Positions 8,180 through 61,611 of a stretch of DNA of 64,000 nucleotides are shown here, in pieces. Every line of letters starts with the position of its first letter. Position 1 is the stretch's first letter. The DNA lies in the IMG/VR virus record IMGVR_UViG_3300036985_003045. One strand, written 5' to 3'. The DNA is from a virus. Taxonomy: Duplodnaviria > Caudoviricetes. A program made the position numbers and the translations under genes. Below the pieces are notes generated by a model that did not search any database, was not told the DNA's origin, and saw only the letters and a list, made by a program, of their open reading frames with translations.

Positions 8180-8205
8180 GATATAATATTCCTCATTTAT
8201 TTAAT

Positions 8206-19647: not shown

Positions 19648-20612
19648 GCTCTATTATAATCATTGCCAGTGGATGAAAAGAAATCGTGTAATGTGCTTGA
19701 CTCTAAATCTCGATAGAACCAATCTGCTATAGGATTATATGATGGTTTAAATATCATTTTATATCCTAGATTCTTAAGACATGTATCAAGTCTTGATTCT
19801 ACAAAGTTTTTTAATTGATTTTCGGTGATGCCTTTGATATGTCCTTTTTCGAATATCTTATCTATAATAACGGTTTCATGCTCAAGAATAACTTTTGTAG
19901 TATCTTCAAGTTCAGTTCTTAGTTCTAATAATGCTTCTTCTGATATAACACCGGCATCAGTTGCTTCTTTCAATAGAGTTCTAAATAACCAAGCACCTGC
20001 TTGACTATGCAATGTTTCATCTATTGCTGAAAAGTTAATACCCGCATTAATGTTTATAAGTTTATTTTTGCCAACATTATTAAAATGTTTAAGAAAAGCA
20101 AATGAACTGTATAATATAGCACCTTCAATCATTGAGAAAATACCGATTGATTTAAGGATATTATAGACAGTATCTTGTTTTTCTACACGTTTGCCTATCC
20201 ATGCCATTCTATTCTTTAGTACATCATCATTTAGATAATCATTATAAAACTCATCGGTATCTAGACCCAGAATCTCATTGATTTTATTATAGAATGGCGC
20301 ATGAACTCCTATTTCCATAAATGCAAAAGTTGTAGCCATTCGCTGAATATCCGGTCTTTGGAATATTTTACCTACATAATTCTGCCAATAATCATTACCA
20401 ACTGATAATTCATATATTGTAAACAGTTTCAAAGTAGATATAACACCATGGTATTCTGCTTCTGTGAAGTTCGTTTTTAGATCGTGTAAATCTTTTTCTA
20501 CTTCAATTTCATCCGGCAACCAGAATATTTCTGCTTGCTGCTTAGCAAATTCTATTGCAGTTGGATAATCTACTGTATACGTAGACTTTTTCTCTAATAG
20601 TCTTATCGACAT
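19620..20612 (-). CDS. nrdB: class I ribonucleotide reductase beta subunit
   Basis: FWLPDE, E..HAPFY, IEG, DETLH, DFF tail. Confidence 0.92.
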   Translation of the reverse strand: MSIRLLEKKSTYTVDYPTAIEFAKQQAEIFWLPDEIEVEKDLHDLKTNFTEAEYHGVISTLKLFTIYELSVGNDYWQNYVGKIFQRPDIQRMATTFAFMEIGVHAPFYNKINEILGLDTDEFYNDYLNDDVLKNRMAWIGKRVEKQDTVYNILKSIGIFSMIEGAILYSSFAFLKHFNNVGKNKLININAGINFSAIDETLHSQAGAWLFRTLLKEATDAGVISEEALLELRTELEDTTKVILEHETVIIDKIFEKGHIKGITENQLKNFVESRLDTCLKNLGYKMIFKPSYNPIADWFYRDLESSTLHDFFSSTGNDYNRAWSEGKFQW

Positions 20613-21448
20613 TATTTATTTCCTTTATTATATATGTTAGCTTCTACAGTAACTCTATGTTGAATCCATCCTTTAAAATTCTTATTAAATGAATCAGTTG
20701 TTGCAGCGGAAGCTTGATGTTCTGTTGGAGAAGCATGTAATGGTATTGATCCAACAAGATCATTAAATAGTTTTAAATCTTTTTCTATTGAAGGTATCTG
20801 TTTATCATGAGTAAAATATGATACTCGTGCACATCTTGCTGCAGATATTTCCATTAATCTTCCGGTGGTATTGTCATGTCCCAAAGCAATATAGTCAGAA
20901 TTAGTAATATAAGGAAGGTGAAAAACCCGTTCTGCAGGAGTAGAATTGTCCATTGCATTTTTCATTTCTCTCGCTAATTCTTGTATTTCAGGTTGGGCAT
21001 CTGGATGATTTCTTAATTCAAAGAAATTATCCCATTCAGTAGATGTTACTATAACAGATATATATTGCCAAGGTTCTAGCAACCGGTTGAATACTTGTTT
21101 ATGGGGACTACTAACTTTATTAGTTATCCATACTAAAGAACACACTATGCGTCCTGAAGTTTTCCACATAAACTGAGCAAACCATTTCTTGAATCCAGTT
21201 AATTCAACACGCGCTTTCATACCTGGTTGATTTGCGCCCCAATGAATAGGTGTCGCAGGATCATTCCAAACTTGTTTAAGAAATGTTGAAACAGGTATTG
21301 CTCTAGAACTTGATGCATTGCGACTAAATACTCGGTGAGTCATGAATTCTGCATGAATGCCTCTCCAATATTTTAATTGCATTGTAGTTAATCTTATTTT
21401 ATTATGGGGATTTAAACTATCCTCTATCACTTTTACTTCACACGCCAT
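20612..21448 (-). CDS. thyX: FAD-dependent thymidylate synthase
   Basis: THRVFSRNASSSRAIP ThyX motif, SAARCARVSY, HASPTEHQA. Confidence 0.9.
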   Translation of the reverse strand: MACEVKVIEDSLNPHNKIRLTTMQLKYWRGIHAEFMTHRVFSRNASSSRAIPVSTFLKQVWNDPATPIHWGANQPGMKARVELTGFKKWFAQFMWKTSGRIVCSLVWITNKVSSPHKQVFNRLLEPWQYISVIVTSTEWDNFFELRNHPDAQPEIQELAREMKNAMDNSTPAERVFHLPYITNSDYIALGHDNTTGRLMEISAARCARVSYFTHDKQIPSIEKDLKLFNDLVGSIPLHASPTEHQASAATTDSFNKNFKGWIQHRVTVEANIYNKGNK

Positions 21449-28529: not shown

Positions 28530-30764
28530 TTATTTCCTAGTAAAGTTTTTATGTGATAATCTTTCTTTTTCAGTTTGACGAACTCTAGATGTAAGTTTCA
28601 TAGCCATACGACTTAAAACAGGTTTTTTCTTTTCTATAATTCTATCAATTCTTTCTCTTTCAGATGTAGCCAAAGTAGAAGAATCTCGACCTTTTAGTAA
28701 TTTTTTACGCATTAAACTAATTGCAAGGTGACGTGCTCTTTTATTTATCTTTTTTGAATCTGAATGCTTCTTCAAAGCTAACATTCTTGCACGATCAATT
28801 TTAGCTCTATTCTTGGAAAATCTTAATCTTGCTTTCATTCTTTCAATTTTAGAAAGAACTTCCAGTAAAGTTTCTTCTTTAATTGGTTTATCTTCTTCAT
28901 CTGGTTCGCCCGTTTCAGCATCAACAACTTGAAACTCGTCATCATCATAAGCATCAAGAATATCTTCATGCTCTAATGAACCAATCATTTTATCTATTTC
29001 TTCATCTGATTCTTCTTCATCATGTTCACCACATTCTTCTTCATTCATATACTTGACTTTCATTCTGTCAATAGTATCTGAACCTTTTGGTCCAGAAGTT
29101 AGATGAGCTCCAACGTGAGTAATTTCAGATTGACCAACTCCATGTGGAGGAGTGCCTAAAGTTGCATGTCCAGTTGCAGCAAGATTTTCAATCTTTTCTA
29201 CATCATCCTTTGGTAATGGTTTGCCTTTAACAAATGCTTTTGCTTCATTAACCCAAGCAGTATCAATAGGGTTAGGGAAACGTCTTCCATAACGTTCTGC
29301 CCTCTCAGTAGCTAATTGAAATTGTTCTTCAGTTAGATTACTTTTTGAGATATTTTTAATTGCTTTCTTATCATAGTTAATACCAACTTCATCGGCAAGT
29401 TTTAACATTTTAGAAACTATTTTCAAAGAATCTTTATTCAATGTTTTAGTTTTACGTAATGCACTGTTTACCAATACTTCAGCATTACTTGATTTCTCAG
29501 CATCGTCAAACCCTAGAATAGTTGCAATCATTCTAGCAACTTTAAGTTTGTCATTAGTTTTTAATGTTTTGTCTGTTAATTCTTCAGTCATACCATTTGC
29601 CGTTGATGCTCTAAATTGATTAATCATTAGTTCTATTTCAGTTCCATGCATATGCCAATAGTCTAAATGGTGTAGGAAATCTCCATTTCTTTCCAATGCT
29701 TGTTTAGCTCTTAAATGAGCATCTTCCCATTGGTTTAAATCTTTTTCATCAGGAACCTGTTCTTGTTCAAGGTGTTTATCATTAATACCCATATAGATAT
29801 CTGTTGCTTTCAAAGCATTTAAAACAGATACTGGATCATGATCACCGGATATTTTTATAGTTTGTATGAATGCTCTAATAGCATCTTCTGAATGATGAAG
29901 ATTTTTTGTTGTATAACCTTTGAACGTGATTTCAGAAGGTATAGTTCCAGGTTGAATATCTTCAAATAAAGTTTGTTCTGACATTACTACGTCCTGTATC
30001 CATTTTTTACTAGTTTCACCAATTGAGTTTACAACAGTAAGATAATTACTGCCTCTGTCTAATATCTCAAATGGTTCGTTATTTGATTCTACAATATCGC
30101 CAATATTGAATATTTCTTTTTTAAAATATTTTTCTCTGAGTTCATCAACATTTAATTTAATTTGTTCTTTAATAATGTCAAGACCCATTCCTTGTCTAAC
30201 ATCATTCATTAATCGTTTAGCATCAATATCACGTAGTGTGGATGGTAAACCTTTCTTAAAACTTTGATAATCACCTTCAGAAGCTGCCGATCTCATCTTA
30301 GTACCAGACATACCGGAAGCATCATCAGCATCTGGATCTCTTTCGCCGGCTGAAATTACTTGAATAGAATCATAATTGTATTCTTTACCATTATACTGGT
30401 TAAGTAATCTTTCAAAGTCTGAAATGCGATCAGAACCTGCAATCATGACAAGATTTTTATATTTAGAGTTTAATGCTTTCGCAACCTCTATGAAAGTGCG
30501 CTCTGTATCAGTTGCAGGTTTGAAATTGGTATGTGGAAACATTAGATTCAAATAATGAACCTTTTTATCCACAGATAAAGGATTCTTCTTTTTATCTTGA
30601 GTTCTTGAAGCATAGATTGCATAATCTGCTTTATTAGCAGTCGCAATCTTCTTAACTACATTAATAAGTAGTCCATGCCCCGTGGTCGGAGGAGAAAATC
30701 TGCCAAAAGCAAATACAATTGTTTTGGCAGGCATTTCCTTTAGGAATTGTCTATACTGTTTCAT
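28530..30764 (-). CDS. HxGH-type (cytidylyltransferase-like) nucleotidyltransferase with long C-terminal extension
   Basis: FGRFSPPTTGH, AGSDR, SAGERDPD, MSGTKMR; MKQYRQFLKE leader. Confidence 0.8.
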   Translation of the reverse strand: MKQYRQFLKEMPAKTIVFAFGRFSPPTTGHGLLINVVKKIATANKADYAIYASRTQDKKKNPLSVDKKVHYLNLMFPHTNFKPATDTERTFIEVAKALNSKYKNLVMIAGSDRISDFERLLNQYNGKEYNYDSIQVISAGERDPDADDASGMSGTKMRSAASEGDYQSFKKGLPSTLRDIDAKRLMNDVRQGMGLDIIKEQIKLNVDELREKYFKKEIFNIGDIVESNNEPFEILDRGSNYLTVVNSIGETSKKWIQDVVMSEQTLFEDIQPGTIPSEITFKGYTTKNLHHSEDAIRAFIQTIKISGDHDPVSVLNALKATDIYMGINDKHLEQEQVPDEKDLNQWEDAHLRAKQALERNGDFLHHLDYWHMHGTEIELMINQFRASTANGMTEELTDKTLKTNDKLKVARMIATILGFDDAEKSSNAEVLVNSALRKTKTLNKDSLKIVSKMLKLADEVGINYDKKAIKNISKSNLTEEQFQLATERAERYGRRFPNPIDTAWVNEAKAFVKGKPLPKDDVEKIENLAATGHATLGTPPHGVGQSEITHVGAHLTSGPKGSDTIDRMKVKYMNEEECGEHDEEESDEEIDKMIGSLEHEDILDAYDDDEFQVVDAETGEPDEEDKPIKEETLLEVLSKIERMKARLRFSKNRAKIDRARMLALKKHSDSKKINKRARHLAISLMRKKLLKGRDSSTLATSERERIDRIIEKKKPVLSRMAMKLTSRVRQTEKERLSHKNFTRK

Positions 30765-35724: not shown

Positions 35725-36771
35725 TTAAGATTTTTTAATACGAGTTTTAATCATCTTCATACCAATTCTATTTCCTACTGGGTTTGGAGCACTAGAAGGT
35801 GAATGAAACTTAAATGTAGCATCTGAAAAAGTACGAACAGCATAAGTAAGATTACTAGATTTATAATCAAGATTAATTTGATTAACAGTTAAGGTTCTTG
35901 CAGCTAATGTTAAAACTTCTATTGCTCCATTTGCAGGATTATTTAACCATTTCATAACTTCACTAGTTATAGGAAAATGTATCATACCCCATTTTTTATA
36001 TCTTGCACTCGCGGTACCACCAAAAACAGATTTCATTTTAGCTTCACTACCTATAGCAAATGAAGCAGCTTTAAATAATTCTTTACATTGAATAACACAA
36101 GAATCATAACTACCCATAGCATTTACCGCATTAATAAGTACATCTTGATCTGGTATATTAATACCTCTATAGCCAGTTTTTAAATCTGTTCTTTTTATTA
36201 ATTTAATTAATTGGTTATAACCAGGCAAATCTAAATATTTTGCTACTTCTAAAACTCCACCATAAACAGTACCCTTATTAATTAATTTTAATACAGTCAA
36301 TGCTTTCTTATTTATAGTACTAAGAGATTCGGGATTTATATTATTTAATGCTCCTTCAACTGCTGTAATAGCTGGAGCTCCACCTTCACCTGATTTTGCA
36401 GAAAACTTTTCATCAATGCCATCTCTAACAAGATAGTAATCTACAAGTCGCATATTTTCATCTTTAGGAAATTTAGCATGTGTATAGTTTTGTCCTGAAT
36501 TTAACATATACAATGCACCACATACTTCTCCAAAATCAGATGTTATTATTCCAATATCTTGAGTAGTTAATCCATCAAATTTACCTGGAAAACTATTAGA
36601 ACCTATAATAGATTGTTTAACTATATAATTACAAGCCTCTTTAGCAGCAGGTGTAATATTTAAAGTCTTTATATACTTAGTAACAATAGTTTCTATTTCA
36701 ACAGATGTAAAAGGATTCATAGTATTTAATGAAAACTTTGATGGTGTTAAGGATTTTTTTATAAGTGCCAT
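35725..36771 (-). CDS. hypothetical protein, possible PD-(D/E)xK-like fold
   Basis: DFGEV ... LVDYY ... FSAKSG spacing; weak. Confidence 0.5.
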   Translation of the reverse strand: MALIKKSLTPSKFSLNTMNPFTSVEIETIVTKYIKTLNITPAAKEACNYIVKQSIIGSNSFPGKFDGLTTQDIGIITSDFGEVCGALYMLNSGQNYTHAKFPKDENMRLVDYYLVRDGIDEKFSAKSGEGGAPAITAVEGALNNINPESLSTINKKALTVLKLINKGTVYGGVLEVAKYLDLPGYNQLIKLIKRTDLKTGYRGINIPDQDVLINAVNAMGSYDSCVIQCKELFKAASFAIGSEAKMKSVFGGTASARYKKWGMIHFPITSEVMKWLNNPANGAIEVLTLAARTLTVNQINLDYKSSNLTYAVRTFSDATFKFHSPSSAPNPVGNRIGMKMIKTRIKKS

Positions 36772-36808: not shown

Positions 36809-37846
36809 TTAAAAGAAATCCTCGAGTGTAGATTCTTTTTGTTTAATACCTTTATTCCAATAATCAAACCTATGATTTACTGGTGCAAGATGTACAGACT
36901 TTGGTTTTTCCATACATGTTTGCATGAAATCAATTGGACTATATGTATAGAATTGTTCAGGCCATTTAAAAACTGACCAGTTATTTCTGTTGCACATTTC
37001 TATTAATGCATCGGTAAAATATTGTCTTATGCTATCTCTTTCTTGTCTAGAACCAAAGAATGGAGTACCTTTATACCAACCTGTTTTAGGCAATTTACGT
37101 GTCTCATCTTCTATAGGTAAAGGTAACACAACTTCAATATTCTTAATGTTTAATACCTTTATTTGATTCTCATATTCAGATACTAAATCATCTACATATT
37201 GGGTTGGGTTTTCTTCTCGACAGATATGATGTCTAATATCAATATTGCCATAATAACATGTAAGATGAGTAAGGTTTTCTTTTAATCCTGGCATGAAATC
37301 ATCTATTTCTTTCGTAATAGTTTTTCTTAATACACCTGCTAGAGTTCTACCATCTTTACGAAATGTCATATATCCAGGTTGATATGCAGAAAATGAATGA
37401 CTATCACCTAATACTAATTTAGTTGTAACCACAGGATGCAACATTTCAGGTATAGAGTTACAAACATTTGATAATGCATCCCAATCTATGGCAGACCAAT
37501 ATTCATCTGCATTCTTAAGTCGATTCTTACATAGTCTACCATAATCAGGCATAGGAATATCAAGAGATACTAATGACTTATTCTTATGTGTTAGGATTCG
37601 TTCGAAGAAGACAGCATTTTCTTTAGTTGCTCCTCCAAAGAGATTAAGAGTTTCTCCATCTTGTTCCATAGAATGATATAAAAATATAGTATCATAATCA
37701 TCCCATGACTCTCCATGGAGAACATCGATCTCAATATTCAAGGCATCTTCAAGTTGGCATTTTCTGAGCATAGCCCAACCAAATTTATGAGAATATTGAG
37801 ATGATGTTAATTTACCAGGTAATAAATCTAAAGCATATTTTTTCAT
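36809..37846 (-). CDS. SGNH/GDSL-like protein with C-terminal clamp-type motif
   Basis: LGDSHS, YYGNIDIRHH, SVHL; SH..GW and LNLFGG blocks; ends STLEDFF. Confidence 0.6.
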   Translation of the reverse strand: MKKYALDLLPGKLTSSQYSHKFGWAMLRKCQLEDALNIEIDVLHGESWDDYDTIFLYHSMEQDGETLNLFGGATKENAVFFERILTHKNKSLVSLDIPMPDYGRLCKNRLKNADEYWSAIDWDALSNVCNSIPEMLHPVVTTKLVLGDSHSFSAYQPGYMTFRKDGRTLAGVLRKTITKEIDDFMPGLKENLTHLTCYYGNIDIRHHICREENPTQYVDDLVSEYENQIKVLNIKNIEVVLPLPIEDETRKLPKTGWYKGTPFFGSRQERDSIRQYFTDALIEMCNRNNWSVFKWPEQFYTYSPIDFMQTCMEKPKSVHLAPVNHRFDYWNKGIKQKESTLEDFF

Positions 37847-39012
37847 TAAAAGAAGGAGTCCAAGGTTGCAGTATTTTGTTTATTATATACTAATTGCTCC
37901 GCTTTGTACAACTCTTTTTCAATATCAATAGTTCCTATTCTTGCTACTTTGCGGCGTTCAATAGCTTTTGTATCATTGCGAATCTTGCAAAAGATCCCAT
38001 ACTGGCACATGCCGACCTCCGAACCGTACGTCATCATCTCAGTCTGGTCTTTGCTTAGAATCTTATTATTGTTATGATCAAGTACATTATGGAAATGTTC
38101 ATGGATCTTAATATCACCGAACCCAAAGAACTTCTGATTATGCCTGAACCATACAACTAAATCTCCATTTGTTATTTCCTTTGATGATGCCTTTGGGAAT
38201 AGTAACTTAAGAGTGTATTGCGCTCCAGGACCGGGTTTAACAAAGTTCTCATCATTATCCCATGATAGTTTTGGATTCACTGAATTAGAAGTAGTACAAT
38301 GGTATCCATAATAAGATCCAATACCTTCAATCTCAGTTAATATTTTAAAAGTATTAGAAGCAGCACCTGATTGTTGCATTCTATTAAAGAATCCTTGTTC
38401 TCCTAATCCTGCTACCCAATCCATGATATTACCTGGATGTACTTTATCTGCATTAGGTCCAAATCTTTGTAACTGATACTTGTTCGCTGCACCAAATAAA
38501 GAAGTACGTAACTCAGTTGAACCATAAATTGGTAACTTAATTGATGCTGCTAACTCTAGATTCTTCCGTACCCGGGCACGCTCACCTGTGGTAAAATAGT
38601 TCTCAAAATCAACATGTGCAGTTTGTGGATCATTATTTCTAGTAGCAATCTGATGGATACCTCTAGCTCCATAAAAATGCGAGATGATTGTATTACCAAT
38701 CTTATTATGAACCGAGAGTTTATCATCAGGTAATGATACTATATTCTTCATAATGTATACCATACGATCATCACAGGTAATCATTGGATGGAAGTACTCA
38801 GTATCTGGATTTAATGCATACTCTGTATATTCATACTTTTCTGTTAATCCATATTGCCATTCAGTTCTTTTATTAACCTGTTCAACAAAATATTTAAAAT
38901 CAAGAAACTTCTCAACATCACATAAAGAAAAATACTTTACTAAAGGATAATCAACATTATTAGATACAAAGTTATTAGCTTCTATATACTCTTTACCTAC
39001 AGCATCTATCAT
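37846..39012 (-). CDS. aGPT-Pplase / amino acid:DNA transferase-like protein
   Basis: DDR..YI, HhH-like IEGIGSYYGY, DE.FVKPGPGA...L..LF, E..MCQY; ends ATLDSFF. Confidence 0.65.
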   Translation of the reverse strand: MIDAVGKEYIEANNFVSNNVDYPLVKYFSLCDVEKFLDFKYFVEQVNKRTEWQYGLTEKYEYTEYALNPDTEYFHPMITCDDRMVYIMKNIVSLPDDKLSVHNKIGNTIISHFYGARGIHQIATRNNDPQTAHVDFENYFTTGERARVRKNLELAASIKLPIYGSTELRTSLFGAANKYQLQRFGPNADKVHPGNIMDWVAGLGEQGFFNRMQQSGAASNTFKILTEIEGIGSYYGYHCTTSNSVNPKLSWDNDENFVKPGPGAQYTLKLLFPKASSKEITNGDLVVWFRHNQKFFGFGDIKIHEHFHNVLDHNNNKILSKDQTEMMTYGSEVGMCQYGIFCKIRNDTKAIERRKVARIGTIDIEKELYKAEQLVYNKQNTATLDSFF

Positions 39013-39404
39013 TTAGATTCCCATTCAGTATGGCGAACATTTTCCTTTTCAGTTAAATCATGTTGCATGTACACAATATTAATATGTGGAACTATTTTTT
39101 TAATCATTTCTATTTGTATTGGATCATCTTCAAAATGAATGCCTATTTTATATCCTTGCTCTTCTAATTTAATAATAGTATTTCCCTTATGAATACCGGA
39201 AGACTCTCTACTCTTATTATCAAAAGACAATTCATTAAACATTACTTTGTTATGAATACCTTTTTTGGTAAGCATGCCAAGAGTTTCTTCTGATTCTTCA
39301 AAAGATCTACCGGTTATAATAATATCGTTAAGACCGGGGTAAACACCTCCATATTTACCCATGTATATGACACCATCTATATCAAAAGTATTAATATTAT
39401 TCAT
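39009..39404 (-). CDS. capless HAD phosphatase
   Basis: FDIDGV, ITGRS, HKG, FEDD. Confidence 0.8.
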   Translation of the reverse strand: MNNINTFDIDGVIYMGKYGGVYPGLNDIIITGRSFEESEETLGMLTKKGIHNKVMFNELSFDNKSRESSGIHKGNTIIKLEEQGYKIGIHFEDDPIQIEMIKKIVPHINIVYMQHDLTEKENVRHTEWESK

Positions 39405-40674
39405 AATCTGTTTGACCTGCTTGGAAAGTATACGGTAAATCCTTTGCTATAGGTTTATTTTCTATTAATTGAGGTTTAGTTAACTCAGTCAATATTCGTC
39501 TTGCTAAGGCGTCACACTCAAACTTTGCATCTTCTGTTTTCAATTGCAAAGGCGGAGTTTTTTGAGTCCATGCTGAAGGACCTCTTAAGAATCCAACGAT
39601 ACCCATTTCAGAAGCAACTTTACAAAATCTAATTGCCGATATAACTACACCACCAGAGTTTGGACTATCTTGTACAGATAATCTAGCAGTTAATTCATAT
39701 CGAGCTCCGCCAAAACCATAACCAATAATATCAATATTACATACTTTATTATCAGAACCTACATAAGTACCACCTGGTTTTTGTTGAACAGTTAATGAAG
39801 GACCTGCATATAATGTCATACCTGAATATGGTTCATCACGTACAATATTCTGACCTTTCAAAACATTCTCTTTTGAGATATGTTTATTATGTAATCTTTC
39901 TTGCTTTGCCATATTCAAGAAGTCAGTATTAGCAGTTCTTCCTGTACGGATATGCTCTTGACCTTGTGTAGAACCGCAGGCCATATTTAATTGAATATGT
40001 TGAGTTACTAATATACCTGAATCTATCATAGCACCTTGAAGAACTTCAGATAATCTAGAAGCACCCCAAGCAGATCTCATATCAGAACCAACAATTGTTA
40101 GACCTTTATCGATAAACTTCTGCTCAATAATCTGAGTTTCTTTAGTGGCAATAATAGTTGGGATACAATTAACAAAATGTACACCTGCTTCTAATGCTAC
40201 ATCAAGATAAAATCTAGTAGCCTTTTCTGAACCTACTGGAAGATAGTTAATAAGTACATCTACACCAGTTTTCTTAACAATCGATACGATATCATCGTAT
40301 GATTTTGCCGCTTCTGCACCAGTCCTAAATGAAACATTCTCTGGATAATCAAGCATATGCTCAGCAACACCATCAAGTTCAGGACCTGAAAATACTGTTG
40401 CATCTTTTGGAACACATGTATTATCTATTTCAGATACATGATCCATTGCGCAATTTGGTAAAGCTCTTAAAGCTTCAATTAAGGATTTATTTACTTTACG
40501 ACGATCGACATCAAATCCTACTACGAATTCCATATCTTCTGATGTATATCCTCCAATATCTGGATACATGAGTCCAACTTTATCGTGTGGATTTTGAATA
40601 TAGTATTGAACTCCTTCAACTAACGACTTAGCGCAATTACCTACGCCGATGATACCAACTTTAATTTTTGACAT
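39397..40674 (-). CDS. ino1: myo-inositol-1-phosphate (inositol-3-phosphate) synthase-like protein
   Basis: GVGNCA Rossmann, FDVD..KV, NYLPVGSE.A..FY, N.DFLNM, DSPNS.GV, KTPP. Confidence 0.9.
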   Translation of the reverse strand: MSKIKVGIIGVGNCAKSLVEGVQYYIQNPHDKVGLMYPDIGGYTSEDMEFVVGFDVDRRKVNKSLIEALRALPNCAMDHVSEIDNTCVPKDATVFSGPELDGVAEHMLDYPENVSFRTGAEAAKSYDDIVSIVKKTGVDVLINYLPVGSEKATRFYLDVALEAGVHFVNCIPTIIATKETQIIEQKFIDKGLTIVGSDMRSAWGASRLSEVLQGAMIDSGILVTQHIQLNMACGSTQGQEHIRTGRTANTDFLNMAKQERLHNKHISKENVLKGQNIVRDEPYSGMTLYAGPSLTVQQKPGGTYVGSDNKVCNIDIIGYGFGGARYELTARLSVQDSPNSGGVVISAIRFCKVASEMGIVGFLRGPSAWTQKTPPLQLKTEDAKFECDALARRILTELTKPQLIENKPIAKDLPYTFQAGQTDYE

Positions 40675-40749
40675 TTTTATTTTCCTTACATTTCAGTTTT
40701 AAGACAATTGGTCCCACTTTGGGGAGTAGGTCTATCTAGTTATAACAAT

Positions 40750-41208
40750 TTAATGCATTAATAAATTATATTGTACTCCGGCTTCTTTGAACATATTTTC
40801 AGTGTCAACCCAAGAATCCTGCCAGTTATCTGGAACTTTCTTATCTCCAGTCCACATAACTACTCTTTTTACTCCAACTTGAATAATACCCTTTGCGCAT
40901 TCAGAACAAACTGGTAATCCATACACATATAATGTAGATCCATTTAGTGATACTCCATTAAATGTGGCATTATATATTAGATTCATTTCTGAATGTACAA
41001 CTAATTTATACTTGGTTGGTTTATGCTCATATCTTTCTACTGCATCTAGGATTCCACGTGGGAATCCATTATATCCAGTAGAAATAATATTCTTTTTGAT
41101 AGGATCTACTGCTATAGAACCTACTTTAGTTGATGGATCTTTACTCCAATTAGAAACGTTTTTAGCCATTTCTAAGAACCGTATATCCCATTTAGTAATA
41201 TCAGACAT
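40750..41208 (-). CDS. cd: dCMP deaminase
   Basis: SKDPSTKVG, GYNGFPRG, HSEMN, PVCSECAK. Confidence 0.9.
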   Translation of the reverse strand: MSDITKWDIRFLEMAKNVSNWSKDPSTKVGSIAVDPIKKNIISTGYNGFPRGILDAVERYEHKPTKYKLVVHSEMNLIYNATFNGVSLNGSTLYVYGLPVCSECAKGIIQVGVKRVVMWTGDKKVPDNWQDSWVDTENMFKEAGVQYNLLMH

Positions 41209-41232
41209 CTTTTATATAAGTTAGTTATAATA

Positions 41233-41275
41233 GATCTATTATATCATAGTTTCTAGAAATGTAAACATTTATTTT
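41233..41275 (-). promoter_or_regulatory. early promoter cassette upstream of cd-ino1 operon
   Basis: GTTTAC 41261-41266, 17 nt, TATAAT 41238-41243. Confidence 0.85.
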
Positions 41276-41916
41276 ATTAAGTGAAAATGTTTTTCATATA
41301 CATGCAAACTAGTGCAGTTCCACATAATAGTACCTACTTCTACATCAAGATCCTTAGCAAGTTTTTTCAAAACATATTCTTGCCAATAGTAATCATTCTT
41401 ATATCCAAACACGACATCATTTGATCTCATTTGTACATTAGCATGGAGTTTACCATCTCTAATCATATAACCTACAGCATTAGTGCAGATGAAATCAGAC
41501 ATACCATGTTTATTATAATCAGTCCAAATAGAAGGTCTATTATAAACCATAGTAGCACGTCTAGAGAAAGGATTCTGTTTCAATTCATTTAATACATTTT
41601 TATATTGGTAACCATTCTCTTCAGAGAAGATTAAGTATCCATAGTTACTATTAATACATCCACCTCCACCAGAAATTGCTAACCAGATAGCTGGAGTTTC
41701 ACCGGGTATATCATGTACATTTAAAGATTGAGATTCATACCATTCAACTTCGCGTTTAGCATAATCAGTATTTAATGTACCAAAAATTACAGGTTCATCT
41801 GCATTAAAAGATGCACCCATAATCTCAAGCATTTTACAACCAGTTTTATCGATTACAAAATCAGCATGCATTAATTTATATAAGAACTCTTTTCTTATAT
41901 CTTTAACATTAAGCAT
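41269..41916 (-). CDS. thymidylate synthase-fold dCMP hydroxymethylase (gp42-like)
   Basis: INSNYG, SRRA, DFICTN, MRSNDVVFGYKNDYYWQ with Asp at the dCMP-specifying site. Confidence 0.82.
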   Translation of the reverse strand: MLNVKDIRKEFLYKLMHADFVIDKTGCKMLEIMGASFNADEPVIFGTLNTDYAKREVEWYESQSLNVHDIPGETPAIWLAISGGGGCINSNYGYLIFSEENGYQYKNVLNELKQNPFSRRATMVYNRPSIWTDYNKHGMSDFICTNAVGYMIRDGKLHANVQMRSNDVVFGYKNDYYWQEYVLKKLAKDLDVEVGTIMWNCTSLHVYEKHFHLIK

Positions 41917-42352
41917 TTTTAGAACCTCTTTTTACTGGAATTTCTTCTGCTTTTCCATTAAAATCAACAATAATTACCGGTTCAACTCTAAATGTAGTGG
42001 GAATTAATGGCGAAGTTGAATCATTAGGTTTATTAAAGATATCGCGATCTGGTCTTTGACCTGGGACTTGGCCACGCATATACGCAGCAAGAAATGATGT
42101 ATAGTTAATAAGATCTAATGCAGAATCTTCGACTGATTCATAATTGACTTTACCACCTGCTTCCATAGTTTCAAGTACTGATACCATTCTTAGATACTTG
42201 CCATTAATAGTATCAAGAATAGACCACACACCATGAACATAATAGTCTGCTTGTTGAACTCTAGAAACTGTGTTATTATAATCCTGGCCTTTTTTCTCCT
42301 GAATTTCTGCAGCTTCTAATAAAATATTTGCTGAAGGTCTTGTGTATGTCAT
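41909..42352 (-). CDS. nucleotide-modification-associated domain protein (DUF1599-like)
   Basis: KKGQDY, K..R, ESVEDSALDLINY. Confidence 0.7.
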   Translation of the reverse strand: MTYTRPSANILLEAAEIQEKKGQDYNNTVSRVQQADYYVHGVWSILDTINGKYLRMVSVLETMEAGGKVNYESVEDSALDLINYTSFLAAYMRGQVPGQRPDRDIFNKPNDSTSPLIPTTFRVEPVIIVDFNGKAEEIPVKRGSKNA

Positions 42353-42830: not shown

Positions 42831-42870
42831 GATCTATTATAACATAAATCCAGGTAATGTAAACATTTTT
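42831..42870 (-). promoter_or_regulatory. early promoter cassette upstream of modification cluster
   Basis: GTTTAC 42859-42864, 17 nt, TATAAT 42836-42841. Confidence 0.8.
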
Positions 42871-43834: not shown

Positions 43835-44236
43835 TTAATCAAACACCTGTGCAAACAATCCAACATTGTCAACATGGGTAGGGGCAGTCCAACCTTCAGG
43901 TTTTAGTAAATCCGGAAGTCCCCATGGATTAGGTCGACCTTCTTTAATACCAACTTGTTTTGCTAAATTAGCATCTAATACTCTATTCCATGCAGTATAT
44001 GCATCTACTTCATATGAATCTAAAGTACCAATAGCAAATACAACTAAATCTATTAGAGCATCAACTGCATCATCGGCTGTTTTAGCTTCTTTTAACTCAT
44101 CCAATTCTTCTTGTAAACAACCTATACGGAATGACAAAAACTTAAGAAGTTTGTCATTATCAAAGTTTCTAACAACTTCATTAACACCAAAACCTTCATG
44201 CATATTTGCAATATCATTTACCCAATTATTACTCAT
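43835..44236 (-). CDS. MazG/PRA-PH-like all-alpha NTP pyrophosphohydrolase
   Basis: EELDEL, DALIDL..FA.G, N..K, LLKPEGW..P. Confidence 0.8.
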   Translation of the reverse strand: MSNNWVNDIANMHEGFGVNEVVRNFDNDKLLKFLSFRIGCLQEELDELKEAKTADDAVDALIDLVVFAIGTLDSYEVDAYTAWNRVLDANLAKQVGIKEGRPNPWGLPDLLKPEGWTAPTHVDNVGLFAQVFD

Positions 44237-47106: not shown

Positions 47107-47664
47107 TTATGGATTATTTTTAGAATGCGGTACATCGAATACAAAGGTAATTCTTATACAATCACCTAAGTTTTCTGTTCCATGTTCTAACTTATTATTA
47201 AACCAAAGTAATGTTCCAGGTTCTACAATAACAGACTCATCTCCTACTGAATATCGATAAGTTCCTTGAATTGATAAATGATACCTATCTCTTGTAAGAT
47301 AATAATCTCCAATATCAATATGTTTGCCTACAATACCTCCAATAGGTAAAGATAGAAATCCACATCGACTATGGGATTTAAAATGTCGTTTCAAAAATCC
47401 TACAATTTCAGTATGTCTTTTATATGCAGGAGTCTCTATACAGATATCTGTATCGCCAACATATTGATCAAGGTTTTCTACTCCGCCCATTACTAATTGA
47501 AGTACTCCTGCTTGAATTTCTGGAAAACCTCTATCAAGCATAGACATTGATCCTTCTAACGTCTTTTGAGCACCCCAATCATTTGGGTATTTTTCTAATT
47601 GTTTTAATATCTTTGAGACATTAATTCCAGTTTTGATTATTCTAATATTATCCAAAGAAGTCAT
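47107..47664 (-). CDS. 2OG-Fe(II) oxygenase (aspartyl/asparaginyl beta-hydroxylase-like)
   Basis: HID facial triad, RYHL, WFNNKLEH, RITFVFD. Confidence 0.8.
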   Translation of the reverse strand: MTSLDNIRIIKTGINVSKILKQLEKYPNDWGAQKTLEGSMSMLDRGFPEIQAGVLQLVMGGVENLDQYVGDTDICIETPAYKRHTEIVGFLKRHFKSHSRCGFLSLPIGGIVGKHIDIGDYYLTRDRYHLSIQGTYRYSVGDESVIVEPGTLLWFNNKLEHGTENLGDCIRITFVFDVPHSKNNP

Positions 47665-55851: not shown

Positions 55852-56276
55852 GAATTCTAATATTATTTTTATTATCAAGTAATGTATTAGCAGAACAAAC
55901 TTTTTCATTTAAATCACCTGCATTTAGTGGTATAGGATATTCTTCACATGTTCAAACAATAGAGAATACTGAAACTACTAGAAAACAAGCATTAGAGGCA
56001 CAGAAATTACAAGATGCCAAGGATGCTGCAGCATTAGTTAAGAACACGAATCTTTCGAAATTTCTGAATAACTTTGAGAGTCGTGTTTATGCACAACTGT
56101 CAACTCAATTGATTAATAACTTATTTGGTGAAAATCCAAAGAATAGTGGAACAGTTCAGATTGAAGGTAATACTATAACATATACCAAGACAACTGACCA
56201 AATATCAATGACTATTACTGGTGCAGATGGTAATGTAACACAAGTAATAATACCGGTCGGTAGTTTTACATTCTAA
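55848..56276 (+). CDS. csgF: curli assembly protein CsgF-like
   Basis: Signal peptide, F.FKSPAFSG, F..N.ESR..AQLS.QL, G...I.G.TI.Y. Confidence 0.8.
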   Translation: MRILILFLLSSNVLAEQTFSFKSPAFSGIGYSSHVQTIENTETTRKQALEAQKLQDAKDAAALVKNTNLSKFLNNFESRVYAQLSTQLINNLFGENPKNSGTVQIEGNTITYTKTTDQISMTITGADGNVTQVIIPVGSFTF

Positions 56277-57064
56277 TGCGTATTATATTATTGTGCATAT
56301 TATTAACTGGATGTTCTGGTGGTATATTAACTCCGTTTAATGTATTCACTAATGAACCTGAAGTATTGGCATTTAAGGAAAAAAGAGAAATAATCTTACC
56401 TCCTCCTAAAGACGGTAAGGTAGTTGTTGCTGTATATTCATTTTTGGATAAGACTGGTCAACGAAAAGATTCTGCTACTATAGCAAAATTATCATCCGCT
56501 GTAACACAAGGTGGTGAATCTATATTATTAAAATCATTGGAAGATGCTGGGGAAGGTAATTGGTTTAGAGTTGTAGAACGAGTAGGGCTAGATAATTTAT
56601 TAAAAGAAAGACAATTGATTAGGTCTGCTCGTGATGAAGCACAAGATGATAAACAAATAGGTTCGATTCTTTATGCTGGTATGATAATTGAAGGATCAAT
56701 AGTATCATATGATACTAATATTAGAACTGGTGGTATTGGTCTTCGTTATATGGGAATTGGACCAGATACACAATATCAGGAAGATATGGTAACTGTTTCA
56801 TTAAGGGCAATTAGTACACAAACTGGTGAAGTATTACTCACTATTAATGTACAAAAGACGATCTTAAGTTATACGGTTGGTGTTGCTGTATTTAAGTTTT
56901 TTGATATGGGAACACAATCATTTGAAAATGAAGTTGGTGCTACTAAAACTGAGGCAGGAATATATGCATTGAAAGCAGCATTAGATTTAGCAGTAGAAGA
57001 ATTAATTATTAAAGGTGAAAGAAAAAGATTATGGAAATTTTCATCCACTTTTAGGAATAATTAA
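56276..57064 (+). CDS. csgG: curli secretion channel CsgG-like lipoprotein
   Basis: Lipobox LTGC, VAVYSF.DKTGQRK, AVTQGG, WFRVVER.GLDNLLKERQLIR. Confidence 0.93.
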   Translation: MRIILLCILLTGCSGGILTPFNVFTNEPEVLAFKEKREIILPPPKDGKVVVAVYSFLDKTGQRKDSATIAKLSSAVTQGGESILLKSLEDAGEGNWFRVVERVGLDNLLKERQLIRSARDEAQDDKQIGSILYAGMIIEGSIVSYDTNIRTGGIGLRYMGIGPDTQYQEDMVTVSLRAISTQTGEVLLTINVQKTILSYTVGVAVFKFFDMGTQSFENEVGATKTEAGIYALKAALDLAVEELIIKGERKRLWKFSSTFRNN

Positions 57065-57775
57065 ATGAACATCATAAGAAATATATTATTGTTTGTTATG
57101 CTTACAATAATAAACCAATCATCAATTGGAGACAGTGGCGGTAATTCTGTTTATATTGATCAAACTAATGCTGATAATTCTACTGTAAATATTACACAAA
57201 CAGGAGCAAATAATACTGTAGGTGACCCAGATTCTATTGGTTCACCGTCTTTTCAAATAGAAGGCAACTCTATGTTGTTTGATATTATACAAGATGGTAT
57301 GAATAATGCTATAACAGGTAATCTAATTGGCGGCGGAGCAACTGCTGATATTACTCAAACTGGTAATAGCAACTCTACCGATTTAAATATGGGTAATATG
57401 GGTACTGGTTCAGGTACTTTAAGTTTGAACTTCACTGGTAGTAATAACACATCAGTATTGAATATTGGTGTATTACATGATTCTGGAAACTATTCATATC
57501 TTTCAAACATTACAGGTAGTAATAACACTTTAACGAGCACTATTAATAGTAAATATACTGAGAATAATTTTATTGTAACGGGGTCAGGTAATGCAATCAC
57601 AACTACTCAAACTGGGGCTAATGGTACTAATCTTATTGCTGGTAATAATATCGCCATATCCAATATTGGAAGCAATAATACCATAGGGATTAGTCAAGAT
57701 GGAACAACAAATCCAAATTCGGCCATTGTCAATCTTACTGGTTCTGATGCTACTGTTAATATCACGCAACATTAA
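57065..57775 (+). CDS. curlin-repeat protein (CsgA/CsgB-like)
   Basis: Signal peptide; repeated I.Q.G..N units rich in N/G/S/T. Confidence 0.7.
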   Translation: MNIIRNILLFVMLTIINQSSIGDSGGNSVYIDQTNADNSTVNITQTGANNTVGDPDSIGSPSFQIEGNSMLFDIIQDGMNNAITGNLIGGGATADITQTGNSNSTDLNMGNMGTGSGTLSLNFTGSNNTSVLNIGVLHDSGNYSYLSNITGSNNTLTSTINSKYTENNFIVTGSGNAITTTQTGANGTNLIAGNNIAISNIGSNNTIGISQDGTTNPNSAIVNLTGSDATVNITQH

Positions 57776-58757
57776 TGCTGGTATTGGTACAGTAATAAAT
57801 CATAAAGGCAATGCTTCTATTACACGTGATAAGACAGTAATAGAATCAAAGAAAGATGTTAGTATAGAATCATTAGATATAGTTGAAACAGGTAAAGGTG
57901 AAGTAGGTATATCTTTTGATGATGATACACAAGTAAAAGTAACAGATAATAGTAAGTTGGTGATAGATGATTTCGTCTATGATCCTAATAACAAGTCTGT
58001 CGGTAAGTTGGCATTGAAATGTGCTATTGGTACTGTACGATACGCCTCTGGTAATATTGCACATGCTAATAATAAGAATGTGGCTATTAATACACCTACA
58101 GCAACTATAGCGGTTCGAGGTACAGCATTCACTATGACAGTTGATGAAATTGGTCAGTCAATGGTTATATTGTTACCTAACTTAGATGGTTCAGTAGGTG
58201 AAATTGAAGTTAGAACCGCGGTAGGTTCTGTTGTATTGAATCAAGCTTTTCAAGCAACAGTAACTACTTCAAATGAAATTAAACCTATGAAGCCGGTGGT
58301 GTTATTAATAAATGAATCTGCTATCACTAATTTTATGATAGTTGCTCCACCGAAGGAAATAGCTCAAAAAATGATTGAGGATAATAAATCTGGTTCATCA
58401 CTAGATTTTAATGGATTAGATAAAGATGCTTTATCTGTAAGAGTATTCATTGATCCATATGCAAAGTTTAATGAATTAAATGTTGATGCTTTATTAATAG
58501 AATATTTGGCAAATGGATTAGAAGATGCTTTTGCGGTAGGTACATTTGCTCCTGGATATAATTCACAGAATCAAGTTTACATATTTGATAAACAGACTAA
58601 TTGGATGATACAAAGATCAGTGAAACAGAGTGCTACATTATTAATCAACAAAGACCGAGGTTACAATATAACACTTGTACAGGATGGAACAACAGTAAAA
58701 TTGCAAAGTGCAGATACAACCACTAATAAAATTTTTATTAAACAAGGAGCAAATTAA
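57699..58757 (+). CDS. FecR-domain protein (start may be 57747)
   Basis: D.V.T..G...I.F.DDT...V..NS.L.ID, TPTATIAVRGT.F. Confidence 0.85.
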   Translation: MEQQIQIRPLSILLVLMLLLISRNINAGIGTVINHKGNASITRDKTVIESKKDVSIESLDIVETGKGEVGISFDDDTQVKVTDNSKLVIDDFVYDPNNKSVGKLALKCAIGTVRYASGNIAHANNKNVAINTPTATIAVRGTAFTMTVDEIGQSMVILLPNLDGSVGEIEVRTAVGSVVLNQAFQATVTTSNEIKPMKPVVLLINESAITNFMIVAPPKEIAQKMIEDNKSGSSLDFNGLDKDALSVRVFIDPYAKFNELNVDALLIEYLANGLEDAFAVGTFAPGYNSQNQVYIFDKQTNWMIQRSVKQSATLLINKDRGYNITLVQDGTTVKLQSADTTTNKIFIKQGAN

Positions 58758-58758
58758 T

Positions 58759-59115: not shown

Positions 59116-59130
59116 TGTATTAAATATGAT

Positions 59131-59167
59131 ACATAGTGTACATAATAAGTCTTTATGTACACTATGT
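59131..59167. terminator. perfect 15-bp inverted repeat between convergent operons
   Basis: ACATAGTGTACATAA / TTATGTACACTATGT, 7-nt loop. Confidence 0.7.
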
Positions 59168-59223
59168 GATACATTTACCTATTCAAAATATAACAAGTAA
59201 CTTCAAATCCTAATCTGATATCT

Positions 59224-59555: not shown

Positions 59556-59561
59556 AATATC

Positions 59562-61610: not shown

Positions 61611-61611
61611 A

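What the first reader, a model, noticed from the sequence alone, without database searches (positions are those of the whole stretch)
36809..42352. Candidate new DNA hypermodification: inositol synthesis wired into a hydroxymethylcytosine cluster
Seen, in transcription order: DUF1599-like protein, gp42-like hydroxymethylase, early promoter, dCMP deaminase, myo-inositol-phosphate synthase, HAD phosphatase, aGPT-Pplase-like transferase and SGNH-like protein. The last four overlap start-to-stop (39397-39404, 39009-39012, 37846). Known: MIPS converts glucose-6-P to inositol-3-P, HADs dephosphorylate sugar phosphates, aGPT-Pplase/AADT enzymes substitute activated C5-hydroxymethyl pyrimidines in DNA, and T4-like phages decorate hmC with sugars. 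I know of no described inositol-bearing DNA base. Inferred: the phage makes a cyclitol, attaches it to 5-hmC (or hmU) in DNA and may acylate it, to evade restriction and CRISPR. No activating kinase is visible in this window.
Basis: partly seen in the sequence, partly recalled or inferred. Interest (0 to 1): 0.95.

Follow-up and report, generated by a model that had tools for sequence, protein, structure and literature searches.

The report
Phage inositol kit for DNA hypermodification
An uncultured freshwater T4-like phage links two genes that make inositol to two enzymes built to act on hydroxymethylcytosine in DNA, which points to an undescribed cyclitol-bearing DNA base that nobody has yet shown chemically.

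Summary
The hydroxymethylase is a true T4 gp42 orthologue, so the base is hmC. It is followed by dCMP deaminase, an inositol-3-phosphate synthase 78-80% identical to cellular ones, and a capless HAD phosphatase. Next comes an all-helical 388-aa protein of the helix-hairpin-helix (HhH) DNA-glycosylase fold. It hits Pfam HMUDK_hel, and its nearest solved structure is a 5-phosphomethyl-dU glycinyltransferase. Last is a 345-aa protein with an N-terminal alpha/beta domain and an SGNH domain.

The decisive result is comparative. In all 77 of 80 viral contigs where it could be tested, a 388-family gene (39-100% identity) has the synthase beside it, although the synthase gene itself has been swapped between close relatives. 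No kinase or other fifth gene is conserved. Three cultured phage groups (Cr30, RP13, Moby) also place the synthase among DNA-base-modification genes. Both terminal enzymes end in the polymerase's own C-terminal tail motif.

Most likely an inositol-derived group is attached to hmC in DNA. The chemistry, the activation step and the SGNH role are inferred. No paper describing this was found. This scan has noted the same kit before on other DNA.

The parts
43835..44236 (-). MazG/PRA-PH-type nucleotide pyrophosphohydrolase. It is a likely counterpart of the T4 gp56 dCTPase, which clears dCTP.
   Evidence: PF01503, 25.6 bits against a cut-off of 21.3. The same family lies upstream of the module in L011. 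The dCTPase role is inferred.
41909..42352 (-). 147-aa protein of unknown function, translationally coupled to the hydroxymethylase
   Evidence: phrog_1485 and phrog_18404; no Pfam hit. It overlaps the next gene by 8 nt.
41269..41916 (-). dCMP hydroxymethylase (T4 gp42 orthologue), which makes 5-hydroxymethyl-dCMP
   Evidence: PDB 1b49/T4 gp42, E 3e-79. The catalytic Cys (FICTN), the Asp at the E. coli D169 position (RSND) and the Asp at the N177 position (KNDY) are all kept. The 5hoC-synthase marker D169N from PMC13326640 is absent.
41238..41265 (-). sigma-70-like promoter in the gap between the hydroxymethylase and the deaminase
   Evidence: TTTACA-16-TG-TATAAT, 11 of 12 matches. This is a consensus match only.
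40750..41208 (-). dCMP deaminase (T4 cd type). It supplies dUMP for thymidylate and is an ordinary T4-like gene.
   Evidence: PF00383, E 6.6e-18; phrog_174, E 8.7e-44.
39397..40674 (-). myo-inositol-3-phosphate synthase (NAD-dependent; glucose-6-P to inositol-3-P)
   Evidence: PF01658, 36 bits against a cut-off of 27. M. tuberculosis Ino1 (1gr0), E 4e-55 over residues 3-386. It is 78-80% identical to cellular homologues, one of them next to a CDP-alcohol phosphatidyltransferase on a 1.8-Mb bacterial contig.
39009..39404 (-). 131-aa capless HAD phosphatase, the conserved partner of the synthase
   Evidence: Motifs FDIDGV, ITGRS, K and FEDDP read from the sequence. phrog_415, the polynucleotide-kinase phosphatase type, E 7e-9. 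Homologues directly follow the synthase in Moby (48% identity), RP13 (37%) and L006 (61%).
37846..39012 (-). 388-aa all-helical HhH (DNA-glycosylase-like) protein of the HMUDK_hel family. It has no P-loop. Predicted to bind or flip hmC and act as the transferase.
   Evidence: PF18723, 43.9 bits. Model pLDDT 90.9. VIA-align best match 8z2m, a 5-PmdU glycinyltransferase (Z 9.2, 229 residues), followed by HhH glycosylases. AlphaFold DB matches are HMUDK_hel proteins. hhalign to the stand-alone HMUDK_hel of RP13, E 1.8e-4. C-terminal tail TLDSFF.
36809..37846 (-). 345-aa two-domain protein: an N-terminal alpha/beta domain (about residues 1-135) plus an SGNH-fold domain (139-336). The family is found only in viruses.
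   Evidence: phrog_13881, E 7e-71. Model pLDDT 92.7. SGNH fold Z 13.5. Invariant GDSH 147-150, GNID 200-203 and H319. Atlas clusters are 100% viral. C-terminal tail TLEDFF.

Best explanation
This is a four-gene hypermodification module attached to a T4-type hmC pathway.

The proposed steps:
1. gp42 makes 5-hydroxymethyl-dCMP, which is polymerised into phage DNA. (Enzyme identity shown; incorporation inferred from T4.)
2. The synthase turns glucose-6-P into inositol-3-P, and the small HAD removes the phosphate. This happens either before coupling, giving free myo-inositol, or after coupling, on the DNA-bound adduct. A capless HAD fits a macromolecular substrate. (Enzyme identities shown; order inferred.)
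3. The 388-aa HhH protein, a relative of the base-binding domain of 5-hmdU DNA kinases and of the fold of the 5-PmdU glycinyltransferase, flips hmC out of the helix. It replaces the 5-CH2-OH oxygen substituent with an inositol hydroxyl, giving a 5-(inosityl-O-methyl)cytosine ether. (Inferred.)
4. The 345-aa SGNH protein works on the same DNA. It either activates the hydroxymethyl group as an ester in place of the missing kinase, or acylates or trims the adduct. (Inferred; its role is the least certain step.)

Both terminal enzymes carry the polymerase-type C-terminal tail, so they probably ride the sliding clamp behind the fork. The likely benefit is protection from host nucleases, as for other bulky hmC adducts.
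For: - hmC is the base. The hydroxymethylase matches T4 gp42 at E 3e-79 with Cys148, Asp171 and Asp179 equivalents kept. All 26 TS-like genes found near the module in related loci keep both Asp residues, so they differ from the D169N 5hoC synthases.
- The synthase is canonical. It aligns over its full length to Ino1 and is 78-80% identical to cellular enzymes in a lipid-synthesis context.
- The HAD has all four motifs and follows the synthase in unrelated phages.
- Linkage is tight. Of 80 IMG/VR loci with a 388-family gene, 77 carry the synthase and 76 carry the HAD within about 4 kb. The three without the synthase end within 800 bases of the 388-family gene.
- Clustering of 83 loci finds only these four families in more than 75 loci.
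- The synthase gene has been replaced while its neighbours have not. L012 against L027 shows 95% identity for the 388-family protein but 45% for the synthase, and the two families' identities disagree across lineages. A DNA run shows a joint exactly at the synthase gene borders.
- Independent contexts agree. In Cr30 the synthase directly follows PF18724 ADDT (E 1e-52). RP13 has HMUDK_hel, the synthase, the HAD and HMUD2. The Moby group has FolE, the synthase, the HAD, QueC, DpdA and QueE.
- The 345- and 388-type proteins are fused in Aeromonas phages 44RR and 31, next to a vSGLT-like sugar symporter. That arrangement again supplies a free polyol or sugar rather than an NDP-sugar.
- C-terminal tails: polymerase NLDDFFG, 345-aa TLEDFF, 388-aa TLDSFF. 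An aromatic tail occurs in 91% and 72% of the two families, against 10% of other ORFs and 0% of the synthase and HAD families.
Against: - There are no chemical data. The inositol adduct is inferred only from gene linkage.
- No activating enzyme (kinase or nucleotidyltransferase) is identified, so the energetics of ether formation are unexplained.
- The 388-aa protein shows no sequence similarity to ADDT or HMUD2. Its fold Z of 9.2 is within the range that helical proteins can reach by chance (note).
- About 30 of 80 loci carrying the 345 family lack the synthase, the HAD and the 388 family. In Aeromonas phage 25 the 345 homologue sits beside a UDP-galactopyranose mutase.
- 44RR and L106 have 388-like domains without a synthase.
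- The Moby group has the synthase-HAD pair but no detected TS-like, HMUDK_hel or ADDT gene.
- The loci are related to each other, so the counts are not independent events.
Confidence: 0.58

Rival explanations
1. Inositol-3-P or inositol takes part in the DNA-modification pathway but is not the final adduct. It could serve as a phosphoryl donor, with the HAD acting as a phosphotransferase that activates the hydroxymethyl group. It could also be a transient carrier, or a bound cofactor of the 388- or 345-aa enzyme. The group that stays on DNA would then be something else, such as an acyl group, an amino acid or a phosphate.
For: No kinase is conserved in the module, so a phosphate source is needed if the chemistry resembles that of 5-PmdU transferases. 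HAD enzymes pass through an aspartyl-phosphate intermediate and some act as phosphotransferases (general knowledge). The SGNH domain implies ester chemistry.
Against: 44RR-type phages run the fused enzyme with a sugar symporter and no phosphate donor of this kind. A whole NAD-dependent cyclase is a costly way to obtain a phosphoryl donor when ATP is available. The synthase is kept even through gene replacement, which argues that the cyclitol itself matters.
Confidence: 0.17
2. The synthase and HAD are an auxiliary metabolic pair that reprograms host inositol supply, for lipids, osmolytes or signalling, and has nothing to do with DNA. They sit beside DNA-modification genes only because both kinds of cargo accumulate in the plastic replication and nucleotide-metabolism region of T4-like genomes.
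For: The phage synthase is 78-80% identical to cellular enzymes that lie next to a CDP-alcohol phosphatidyltransferase. In Moby no hydroxymethylpyrimidine genes were detected. Start/stop overlaps are common in phage genomes whatever the gene functions.
Against: The synthase is present in all 77 testable loci that carry a 388-family gene, across 39-100% identity and several gene orders. It has been replaced by a different synthase at exactly the same position. It is adjacent to unrelated base-modifying enzymes in Cr30 and RP13.
Confidence: 0.1
3. The module attaches a cyclitol or sugar other than myo-inositol, or acts on a substrate other than hmC in double-stranded DNA, such as the nucleotide pool, single-stranded DNA at the fork, or RNA.
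For: The synthase family includes a five-membered cyclitol-phosphate synthase (6k96, E 4e-25). Some loci add an FkbM-type methyltransferase, either between the HAD and the 388-family gene or fused to the 388-family protein. The specificity of the 388-aa protein is untested.
Against: The window enzyme is far closer to Ino1 (190.7 bits) than to the five-membered-ring enzyme (92.1 bits), and to cellular inositol synthases. The clamp-type tails and the HhH fold point to DNA.
Confidence: 0.1

Closest known systems
Thymidine hypermodification pathway: 5-hmdU DNA kinase plus aGPT-Pplase/amino-acid:DNA transferase, as in phages M6, ViI, PhiW-14, SP10 and PaMx11 (PMC8989533; PDB 8z2m)
   Same: Both modify a 5-hydroxymethylpyrimidine after replication. 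Both use an HhH, DNA-glycosylase-like enzyme encoded beside the genes that make the base. ViI already uses an oxygen nucleophile (serine), which gives an ether.
   Different: Here the base is hmC, not hmU. No P-loop kinase is present or conserved. The HhH protein is HMUDK_hel by sequence, not ADDT. The supply genes make a cyclitol instead of drawing on an amino acid or polyamine. An SGNH-domain protein is the constant partner.
T4 glucosyl-hmC system (gp42, gp56, alpha- and beta-glucosyltransferases)
   Same: Both have a gp42 orthologue, a likely dCTPase, a dCMP deaminase and a T4-like replication module. Both decorate hmC with a bulky polyhydroxy group. The predicted nucleoside has the same mass as glucosyl-hmdC.
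   Different: No GT-B glucosyltransferase or NDP-sugar route was found in the cluster. The adduct would be a non-glycosidic ether to a carbocycle.
Arabinosyl-5-hydroxycytosine clusters of RB69 and DLP3 (PMC13326640)
   Same: Both are Straboviridae-type clusters that join a TS homologue, a small HAD-type phosphatase and sugar-supply genes to DNA transferases.
   Different: Those TS homologues carry the D169N change and make 5-hydroxy-dCMP. The sugar there is activated as UDP-arabinose and added by GT-B enzymes.
Cellular inositol synthesis (Ino1 plus a phosphatase), as in mycothiol and phosphatidylinositol pathways
   Same: The first enzyme is the same and is highly conserved. It is followed by a dephosphorylation step. 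In mycothiol synthesis the inositol phosphate is coupled first and dephosphorylated afterwards.
   Different: The phosphatase here is a 131-aa capless HAD rather than an IMPase. The neighbouring genes concern DNA bases, not lipids or thiols.

Membership tests
T4 gp42-type dCMP hydroxymethylase | Full-length similarity to T4 gp42 with the catalytic Cys148 | tested here: met
   1b49, E 3e-79, residues 3-214. The Cys in FICTN aligns with T4 FMCTN.
T4 gp42-type dCMP hydroxymethylase | Asp at the E. coli ThyA N177 position (cytosine specificity), and Asp rather than Asn at the D169 position (hydroxymethylase, not 5hoC synthase) | tested here: met
   The motifs are KNDY and RSND. The criterion is taken from PMC13326640.
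myo-inositol-3-phosphate synthase | Pfam PF01658 above its gathering score, and end-to-end alignment to a solved Ino1 | tested here: met
   36 bits against a cut-off of 27. 1gr0, E 4e-55, residues 3-386 against 15-360.
myo-inositol-3-phosphate synthase | N-terminal NAD-binding GxGxxA motif and the conserved Lys/Asp active-site positions | tested here: inconclusive
   GIIGVGNCA, NTDF...NKHISK, DNK, QDSPNS and QKTPP align with the Ino1 counterparts. Which of these residues are catalytic rests on memory of the literature, not on a tool. The score is below the NCBIfam mycothiol_INO1 equivalog cut-off (216 against 638 bits), as expected for a different clade.
HAD phosphatase | Four HAD motifs (DxDx[TV], [ST], K/R, DD) | tested here: met
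   FDIDGVI, IITGRS, K and HFEDDP are read from the sequence and conserved in the Moby, RP13 and L006 homologues. The Pfam match is only sub-threshold (18.7 against 27 bits).
aGPT-Pplase / amino-acid:DNA transferase (ADDT, PF18724) | Sequence match to the Pfam family models | tested here: not met
   There is no ADDT or aGPT-Pplase hit at E up to 10. hhalign of the family profile against the Cr30 ADDT protein gives E 0.39.
aGPT-Pplase / amino-acid:DNA transferase (ADDT, PF18724) | HhH DNA-glycosylase-like fold resembling a solved member | tested here: met
   8z2m ranks first with Z 9.2, rmsd 4.3 and 229 aligned residues. It is followed by OGG, EndoIII, AlkA and MutY. The Z is moderate for a helical protein.
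aGPT-Pplase / amino-acid:DNA transferase (ADDT, PF18724) | Co-occurrence with a P-loop 5-hmdU DNA kinase that makes the phosphorylated substrate | tested here: not met
   No kinase was found in the window ORFs scanned. No fifth conserved family appears across 83 loci. The rest of the genome could not be searched.
5-hmdU DNA kinase (5-HMUDK) | HMUDK_hel helical domain | tested here: met
   PF18723, 43.9 bits against a cut-off of 25. AlphaFold DB matches are HMUDK_hel proteins. hhalign to RP13 ORF120, E 1.8e-4.
5-hmdU DNA kinase (5-HMUDK) | N-terminal P-loop kinase domain | tested here: not met
   No Walker A motif appears in the family consensus. The whole chain is helical and is covered by the HhH fold.
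SGNH/GDSL hydrolase-acyltransferase | SGNH fold with block I GDS and block III GxND | tested here: met
   Z 13.5 over residues 139-336. GDSH 147-150 and GNID 200-203 are invariant in 55 sequences.
SGNH/GDSL hydrolase-acyltransferase | Block V DxxH catalytic His/Asp, and a Pfam match above threshold | tested here: inconclusive
   Invariant E313 and H319 are candidates, but their geometry could not be checked because no coordinates were available. PF00657 gives only E 0.13.
T4 beta-glucosyltransferase-like GT-B | Detectable similarity of the N-terminal lobe to a GT-B acceptor domain | tested here: inconclusive
   Neither the profile-against-PDB sequence search nor the Atlas feature search returned anything.

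The most novel reading that the evidence does not exclude
The 388-aa HhH enzyme makes 5-(myo-inosityl-O-methyl)cytosine without ATP. An invariant cysteine (C336) attacks C6 of the flipped hmC, water leaves, and the exocyclic methylene is trapped by inositol. The equilibrium is pulled by the millimolar inositol that the phage's own synthase and phosphatase supply; in 44RR-type phages a symporter brings in the polyol or sugar instead. The clamp-tethered SGNH partner then esterifies the adduct. This would be the first cyclitol-bearing DNA base and the first kinase-free route from a hydroxymethylpyrimidine to an ether adduct.
Probability: 0.2. Interest if true: 0.95.

Novelty: new variant of a known kind. 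Interest (0 to 1): 0.85.

Why it matters
Phage DNA hypermodifications decide which restriction, CRISPR and glycosylase defences a phage escapes, and they have supplied tools for epigenetic sequencing and DNA labelling. Known adducts on 5-hydroxymethylpyrimidines are sugars added from NDP-sugars, or amino acids and polyamines added after phosphorylation. A carbocyclic polyol joined by a non-glycosidic ether would be a new chemical class. It would resist glycosidases and DNA glycosylases that recognise sugar-hmC, and it would have the same mass as glucosyl-hmC, so it could easily have been misread in mass spectra.

The module is common in freshwater, sediment and marine viromes. The search with the 388-family alignment found 210 relatives and the search with the 345-family alignment found 561. 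Related kits exist in culturable phages (Cr30, RP13, the Moby group, 44RR/31), so the question can be tested directly. The absence of any kinase also raises a mechanistic question about how the hydroxymethyl group is activated.

Tried and rejected
- Megablast of the region against the phage collection found no near relative.
- The window's own assembly is not held. The nearest record, G001, is a 28.7-kb fragment with no HMUDK_hel hit. The rest of the genome therefore could not be searched for a kinase, dNMP kinase or glycosyltransferases.
- Complex prediction on the 388-aa and 345-aa proteins returned no verdict (score 0.00). This is evidence neither for nor against binding.
- Sequence profiles of both families against the PDB found nothing at E up to 10.
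- Foldseek against the PDB found nothing significant for the 388-aa model. Only VIA-align and AlphaFold DB placed it.
- hhalign of the 388 family against the Cr30 ADDT protein and the RP13 HMUD2 protein showed no similarity.
- The Atlas feature search on the N-terminal domain of the 345-aa protein gave no usable hit.
- I tested whether the 348-aa protein downstream (35725-36771) is the nrdC.10-type AAA protein seen near the module in 44RR, phage 25 and L008. It is not, and it is not conserved with the module.
- I tested whether 44RR's symporter is an inositol carrier. It is closest to the Vibrio Na+/galactose transporter (E 3e-103), so it argues only for uptake of a free sugar or polyol.
- Contigs from three metatranscriptome libraries cover most of the cluster. 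Contigs cannot show transcription, and DNA carry-over is possible.
- Seven literature searches on inositol, the synthase or HMUDK together with phage DNA modification found no description of this pathway. The library lacks most subscription journals.

Full report
OBSERVATION

The window is a 31% GC stretch of a T4-like phage genome. It carries UvsX, a gp41-type helicase, a primase, a family-B polymerase, RNase H, ribonucleotide reductase, a ligase and ThyX. A strong sigma-70-like site (TTTACA-16-TG-TATAAT) lies in the gap between the hydroxymethylase and the deaminase. The region as a whole has no more such sites than shuffled sequence.

WHAT EACH GENE IS

- The 215-aa TS homologue is a close relative of T4 gp42 (PDB 1b49, E 3e-79). 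It keeps the catalytic Cys and an Asp at the position that makes T4's enzyme cytosine-specific. A 2026 paper shows that some phage TS homologues instead make 5-hydroxy-dCMP, and that these are marked by Asn at the E. coli D169 position (PMC13326640). The window enzyme has Asp there (RSND), so it is a hydroxymethylase. A MazG/PRA-PH-type pyrophosphohydrolase upstream is a plausible dCTPase.
- The deaminase is ordinary.
- The 425-aa protein aligns end to end with M. tuberculosis Ino1 (E 4e-55). It is 78-80% identical to homologues on bacterial contigs. One of these lies on a 1.8-Mb contig close to a CDP-alcohol phosphatidyltransferase. It is therefore a canonical inositol-3-phosphate synthase, not a diverged paralogue.
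- The 131-aa protein has all four HAD motifs and no cap domain. It resembles the phosphatase domain of polynucleotide kinase.
- The 388-aa protein has no P-loop. It matches Pfam HMUDK_hel, the helical domain of 5-hmdU DNA kinases. A confident model (pLDDT 90.9) is all-helical. Aligned against 48,161 solved chains, its best match is 8z2m, the 5-phosphomethyl-dU glycinyltransferase of phage PaMx11 (Z 9.2). A run of HhH DNA glycosylases follows. AlphaFold DB matches are HMUDK_hel proteins. It has no sequence similarity to ADDT or HMUD2, but it aligns with the stand-alone HMUDK_hel protein of phage RP13 (E 1.8e-4).
- The 345-aa protein (pLDDT 92.7) is an N-terminal alpha/beta domain plus an SGNH-fold domain (Z 13.5, residues 139-336). 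GDSH and GNID motifs are invariant. Its family is purely viral.

COMPARATIVE EVIDENCE

This is the core of the case.

A scan of IMG/VR with the 388-family alignment returned 80 loci at 39-100% identity. The synthase is present in 77 of them, the HAD in 76 and the 345 family in 74. The three loci without the synthase end within 800 bases of the 388-family gene. Clustering every ORF of 83 loci shows that only these four families are shared by more than 75 loci. The next most common family is a polymerase fragment found in 44, and no kinase appears.

The linkage survives gene replacement. L012 and L027 share 95% identity in the 388-family protein and 92-97% in the HAD and 345-family proteins. Their synthases are only 45% identical and differ in length. 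Across lineages, synthase and 388-family identities disagree. A DNA metagenome holds a contig whose joint lies exactly at the synthase gene borders. Selection therefore keeps the synthase function next to this enzyme.

Wherever a TS homologue lies nearby, including ones only 30-35% identical, it has the two Asp residues of a dCMP hydroxymethylase.

Cultured phages give independent cases:
- In Caulobacter phage Cr30 the synthase directly follows a PF18724 amino-acid:DNA transferase (E 1e-52).
- Ralstonia phage RP13 has HMUDK_hel, the synthase, the HAD (37% identity) and HMUD2 within 10 kb.
- The Stenotrophomonas Moby group places the synthase and HAD (48% identity) between FolE and QueC-DpdA-QueE.

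In Aeromonas phages 44RR and 31 the 345- and 388-type proteins are one 795-aa polypeptide beside a vSGLT-like symporter. This has the same order of parts as a 5-hmdU DNA kinase, namely a catalytic domain followed by HMUDK_hel.

The 345 family is broader than the module. About 30 of 80 loci lack the synthase, the HAD and the 388 family. In Aeromonas phage 25 the 345 homologue sits next to a UDP-galactopyranose mutase.

DNA TARGETING

The polymerase ends in NLDDFFG, the 345-aa protein in TLEDFF and the 388-aa protein in TLDSFF. A C-terminal aliphatic-aromatic tail occurs in 91% and 72% of the two families. It occurs in 10% of other ORFs and in none of the synthase or HAD proteins. In T4 and RB69 such a tail tethers the polymerase to the sliding clamp; this point rests on my own knowledge and was not checked here.

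MECHANISM

Shown: the enzyme identities, the tight linkage and the absence of a conserved kinase.

Inferred: inositol, or inositol-3-P that is later dephosphorylated by the capless HAD, is the nucleophile that replaces the hydroxyl of hmC held by the HhH protein, giving an ether.

Two ways round the missing kinase are open:
1. The SGNH protein esterifies the hydroxymethyl group to make a leaving group. This would fit its being the most widespread component and its fusion in front of HMUDK_hel.
2. The HhH enzyme uses covalent C6 attack by an invariant cysteine, C336, to expel water directly, with a high inositol concentration driving the exchange. From memory, C5-methyltransferases without cofactor can couple thiols to hmC in this way.

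In the second case the SGNH protein would acylate or edit the adduct. I cannot decide between these two routes.

RIVALS

- The synthase and HAD could be metabolic cargo unrelated to DNA. The linkage data argue strongly against this.
- Inositol phosphate could be a donor or cofactor rather than the adduct.
- The cyclitol or the target could differ from what I propose.

COMPARISON AND NOVELTY

The system works most like the thymidine hypermodification pathway (PMC8989533). It fails two defining tests for membership: the ADDT sequence match and the partner kinase. It shares its upstream half with the T4 hmC pathway but has no glucosyltransferase in the cluster. I found no paper describing an inositol-bearing DNA base. 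It is best filed as a new variant of post-replicative hydroxymethylpyrimidine hypermodification.

Earlier notes of this scan reached the same reading on other genomes. They are not independent evidence.

LIMITS

- There is no chemistry behind any of this.
- The rest of this genome was not available.
- The loci are related to each other.
- The fold match of the helical protein is moderate.
- The complex prediction gave no verdict.
- The phage occurs in freshwater and sediment metagenomes from ten studies and in RNA libraries. Transcription is not proven.

Noticed in passing
window 56276-61646: A phage-borne island holds a CsgG curli-secretion homologue (E 3e-54), a curlin-repeat protein and a FecR-domain protein on the plus strand. 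Next to it, on the minus strand, is a 694-aa CHASE2 plus adenylate/guanylate cyclase protein. This is unusual cargo for a T4-like phage.
   Followed up: no
window 28530-30764: A 744-aa protein has an N-terminal cytidylyltransferase-like (HIGH-motif) domain (PF01467, E 7.8e-5). A similar domain occurs in a 533-aa protein of L030 about 6 kb upstream of that locus's 345-family gene. It could be a nucleotidyl-activating enzyme, but it is not conserved with the module.
   Followed up: partly
window 39404-40665; loci L014, L015, L027: The synthase gene is a swappable cassette. Near-identical phages carry a 405-aa synthase only 45% identical to the window's, and a DNA-run contig joins exactly at the gene borders.
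   Followed up: yes
L002 (Stenotrophomonas phage Moby) 6207-11621: The synthase and its HAD partner sit between FolE and QueC, DpdA and QueE. No TS-like, HMUDK_hel or ADDT gene was detected in that genome. This hints at an inositol link to 7-deazaguanine DNA modification.
   Followed up: partly
L005 (Aeromonas phage 25) 3776-7047; L004 (44RR) 4384-8364: The 345-family homologue lies next to a UDP-galactopyranose mutase in phage 25. In 44RR it is fused to a 388-like domain beside a vSGLT-like Na+/sugar symporter. Both phages encode a gp42-like enzyme but have unknown hmC adducts.
   Followed up: partly
window 42836-42863 and 41238-41265: Two promoter-like sites have the same hexamers and spacing (TTTACA-16-TG-TATAAT). 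One is ahead of the 148-aa gene and the other ahead of the deaminase.
   Followed up: no
window 47107-47664: A 185-aa cupin / Asp-Asn beta-hydroxylase-like protein lies immediately downstream of the DNA polymerase gene and overlaps its end.
   Followed up: no
window 20612-21448: A 278-aa protein matches ThyX only over a short C-terminal stretch (residues 135-171, E 1e-8). It lies next to the ribonucleotide reductase genes and may be a divergent flavin-dependent thymidylate synthase.
   Followed up: no
L026 9258-10001; proteins P0169, P0178: In some lineages an FkbM-type methyltransferase lies between the HAD and the 388-family gene, or is fused to the 388-family protein. This suggests a methylated variant of the adduct.
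   Followed up: no
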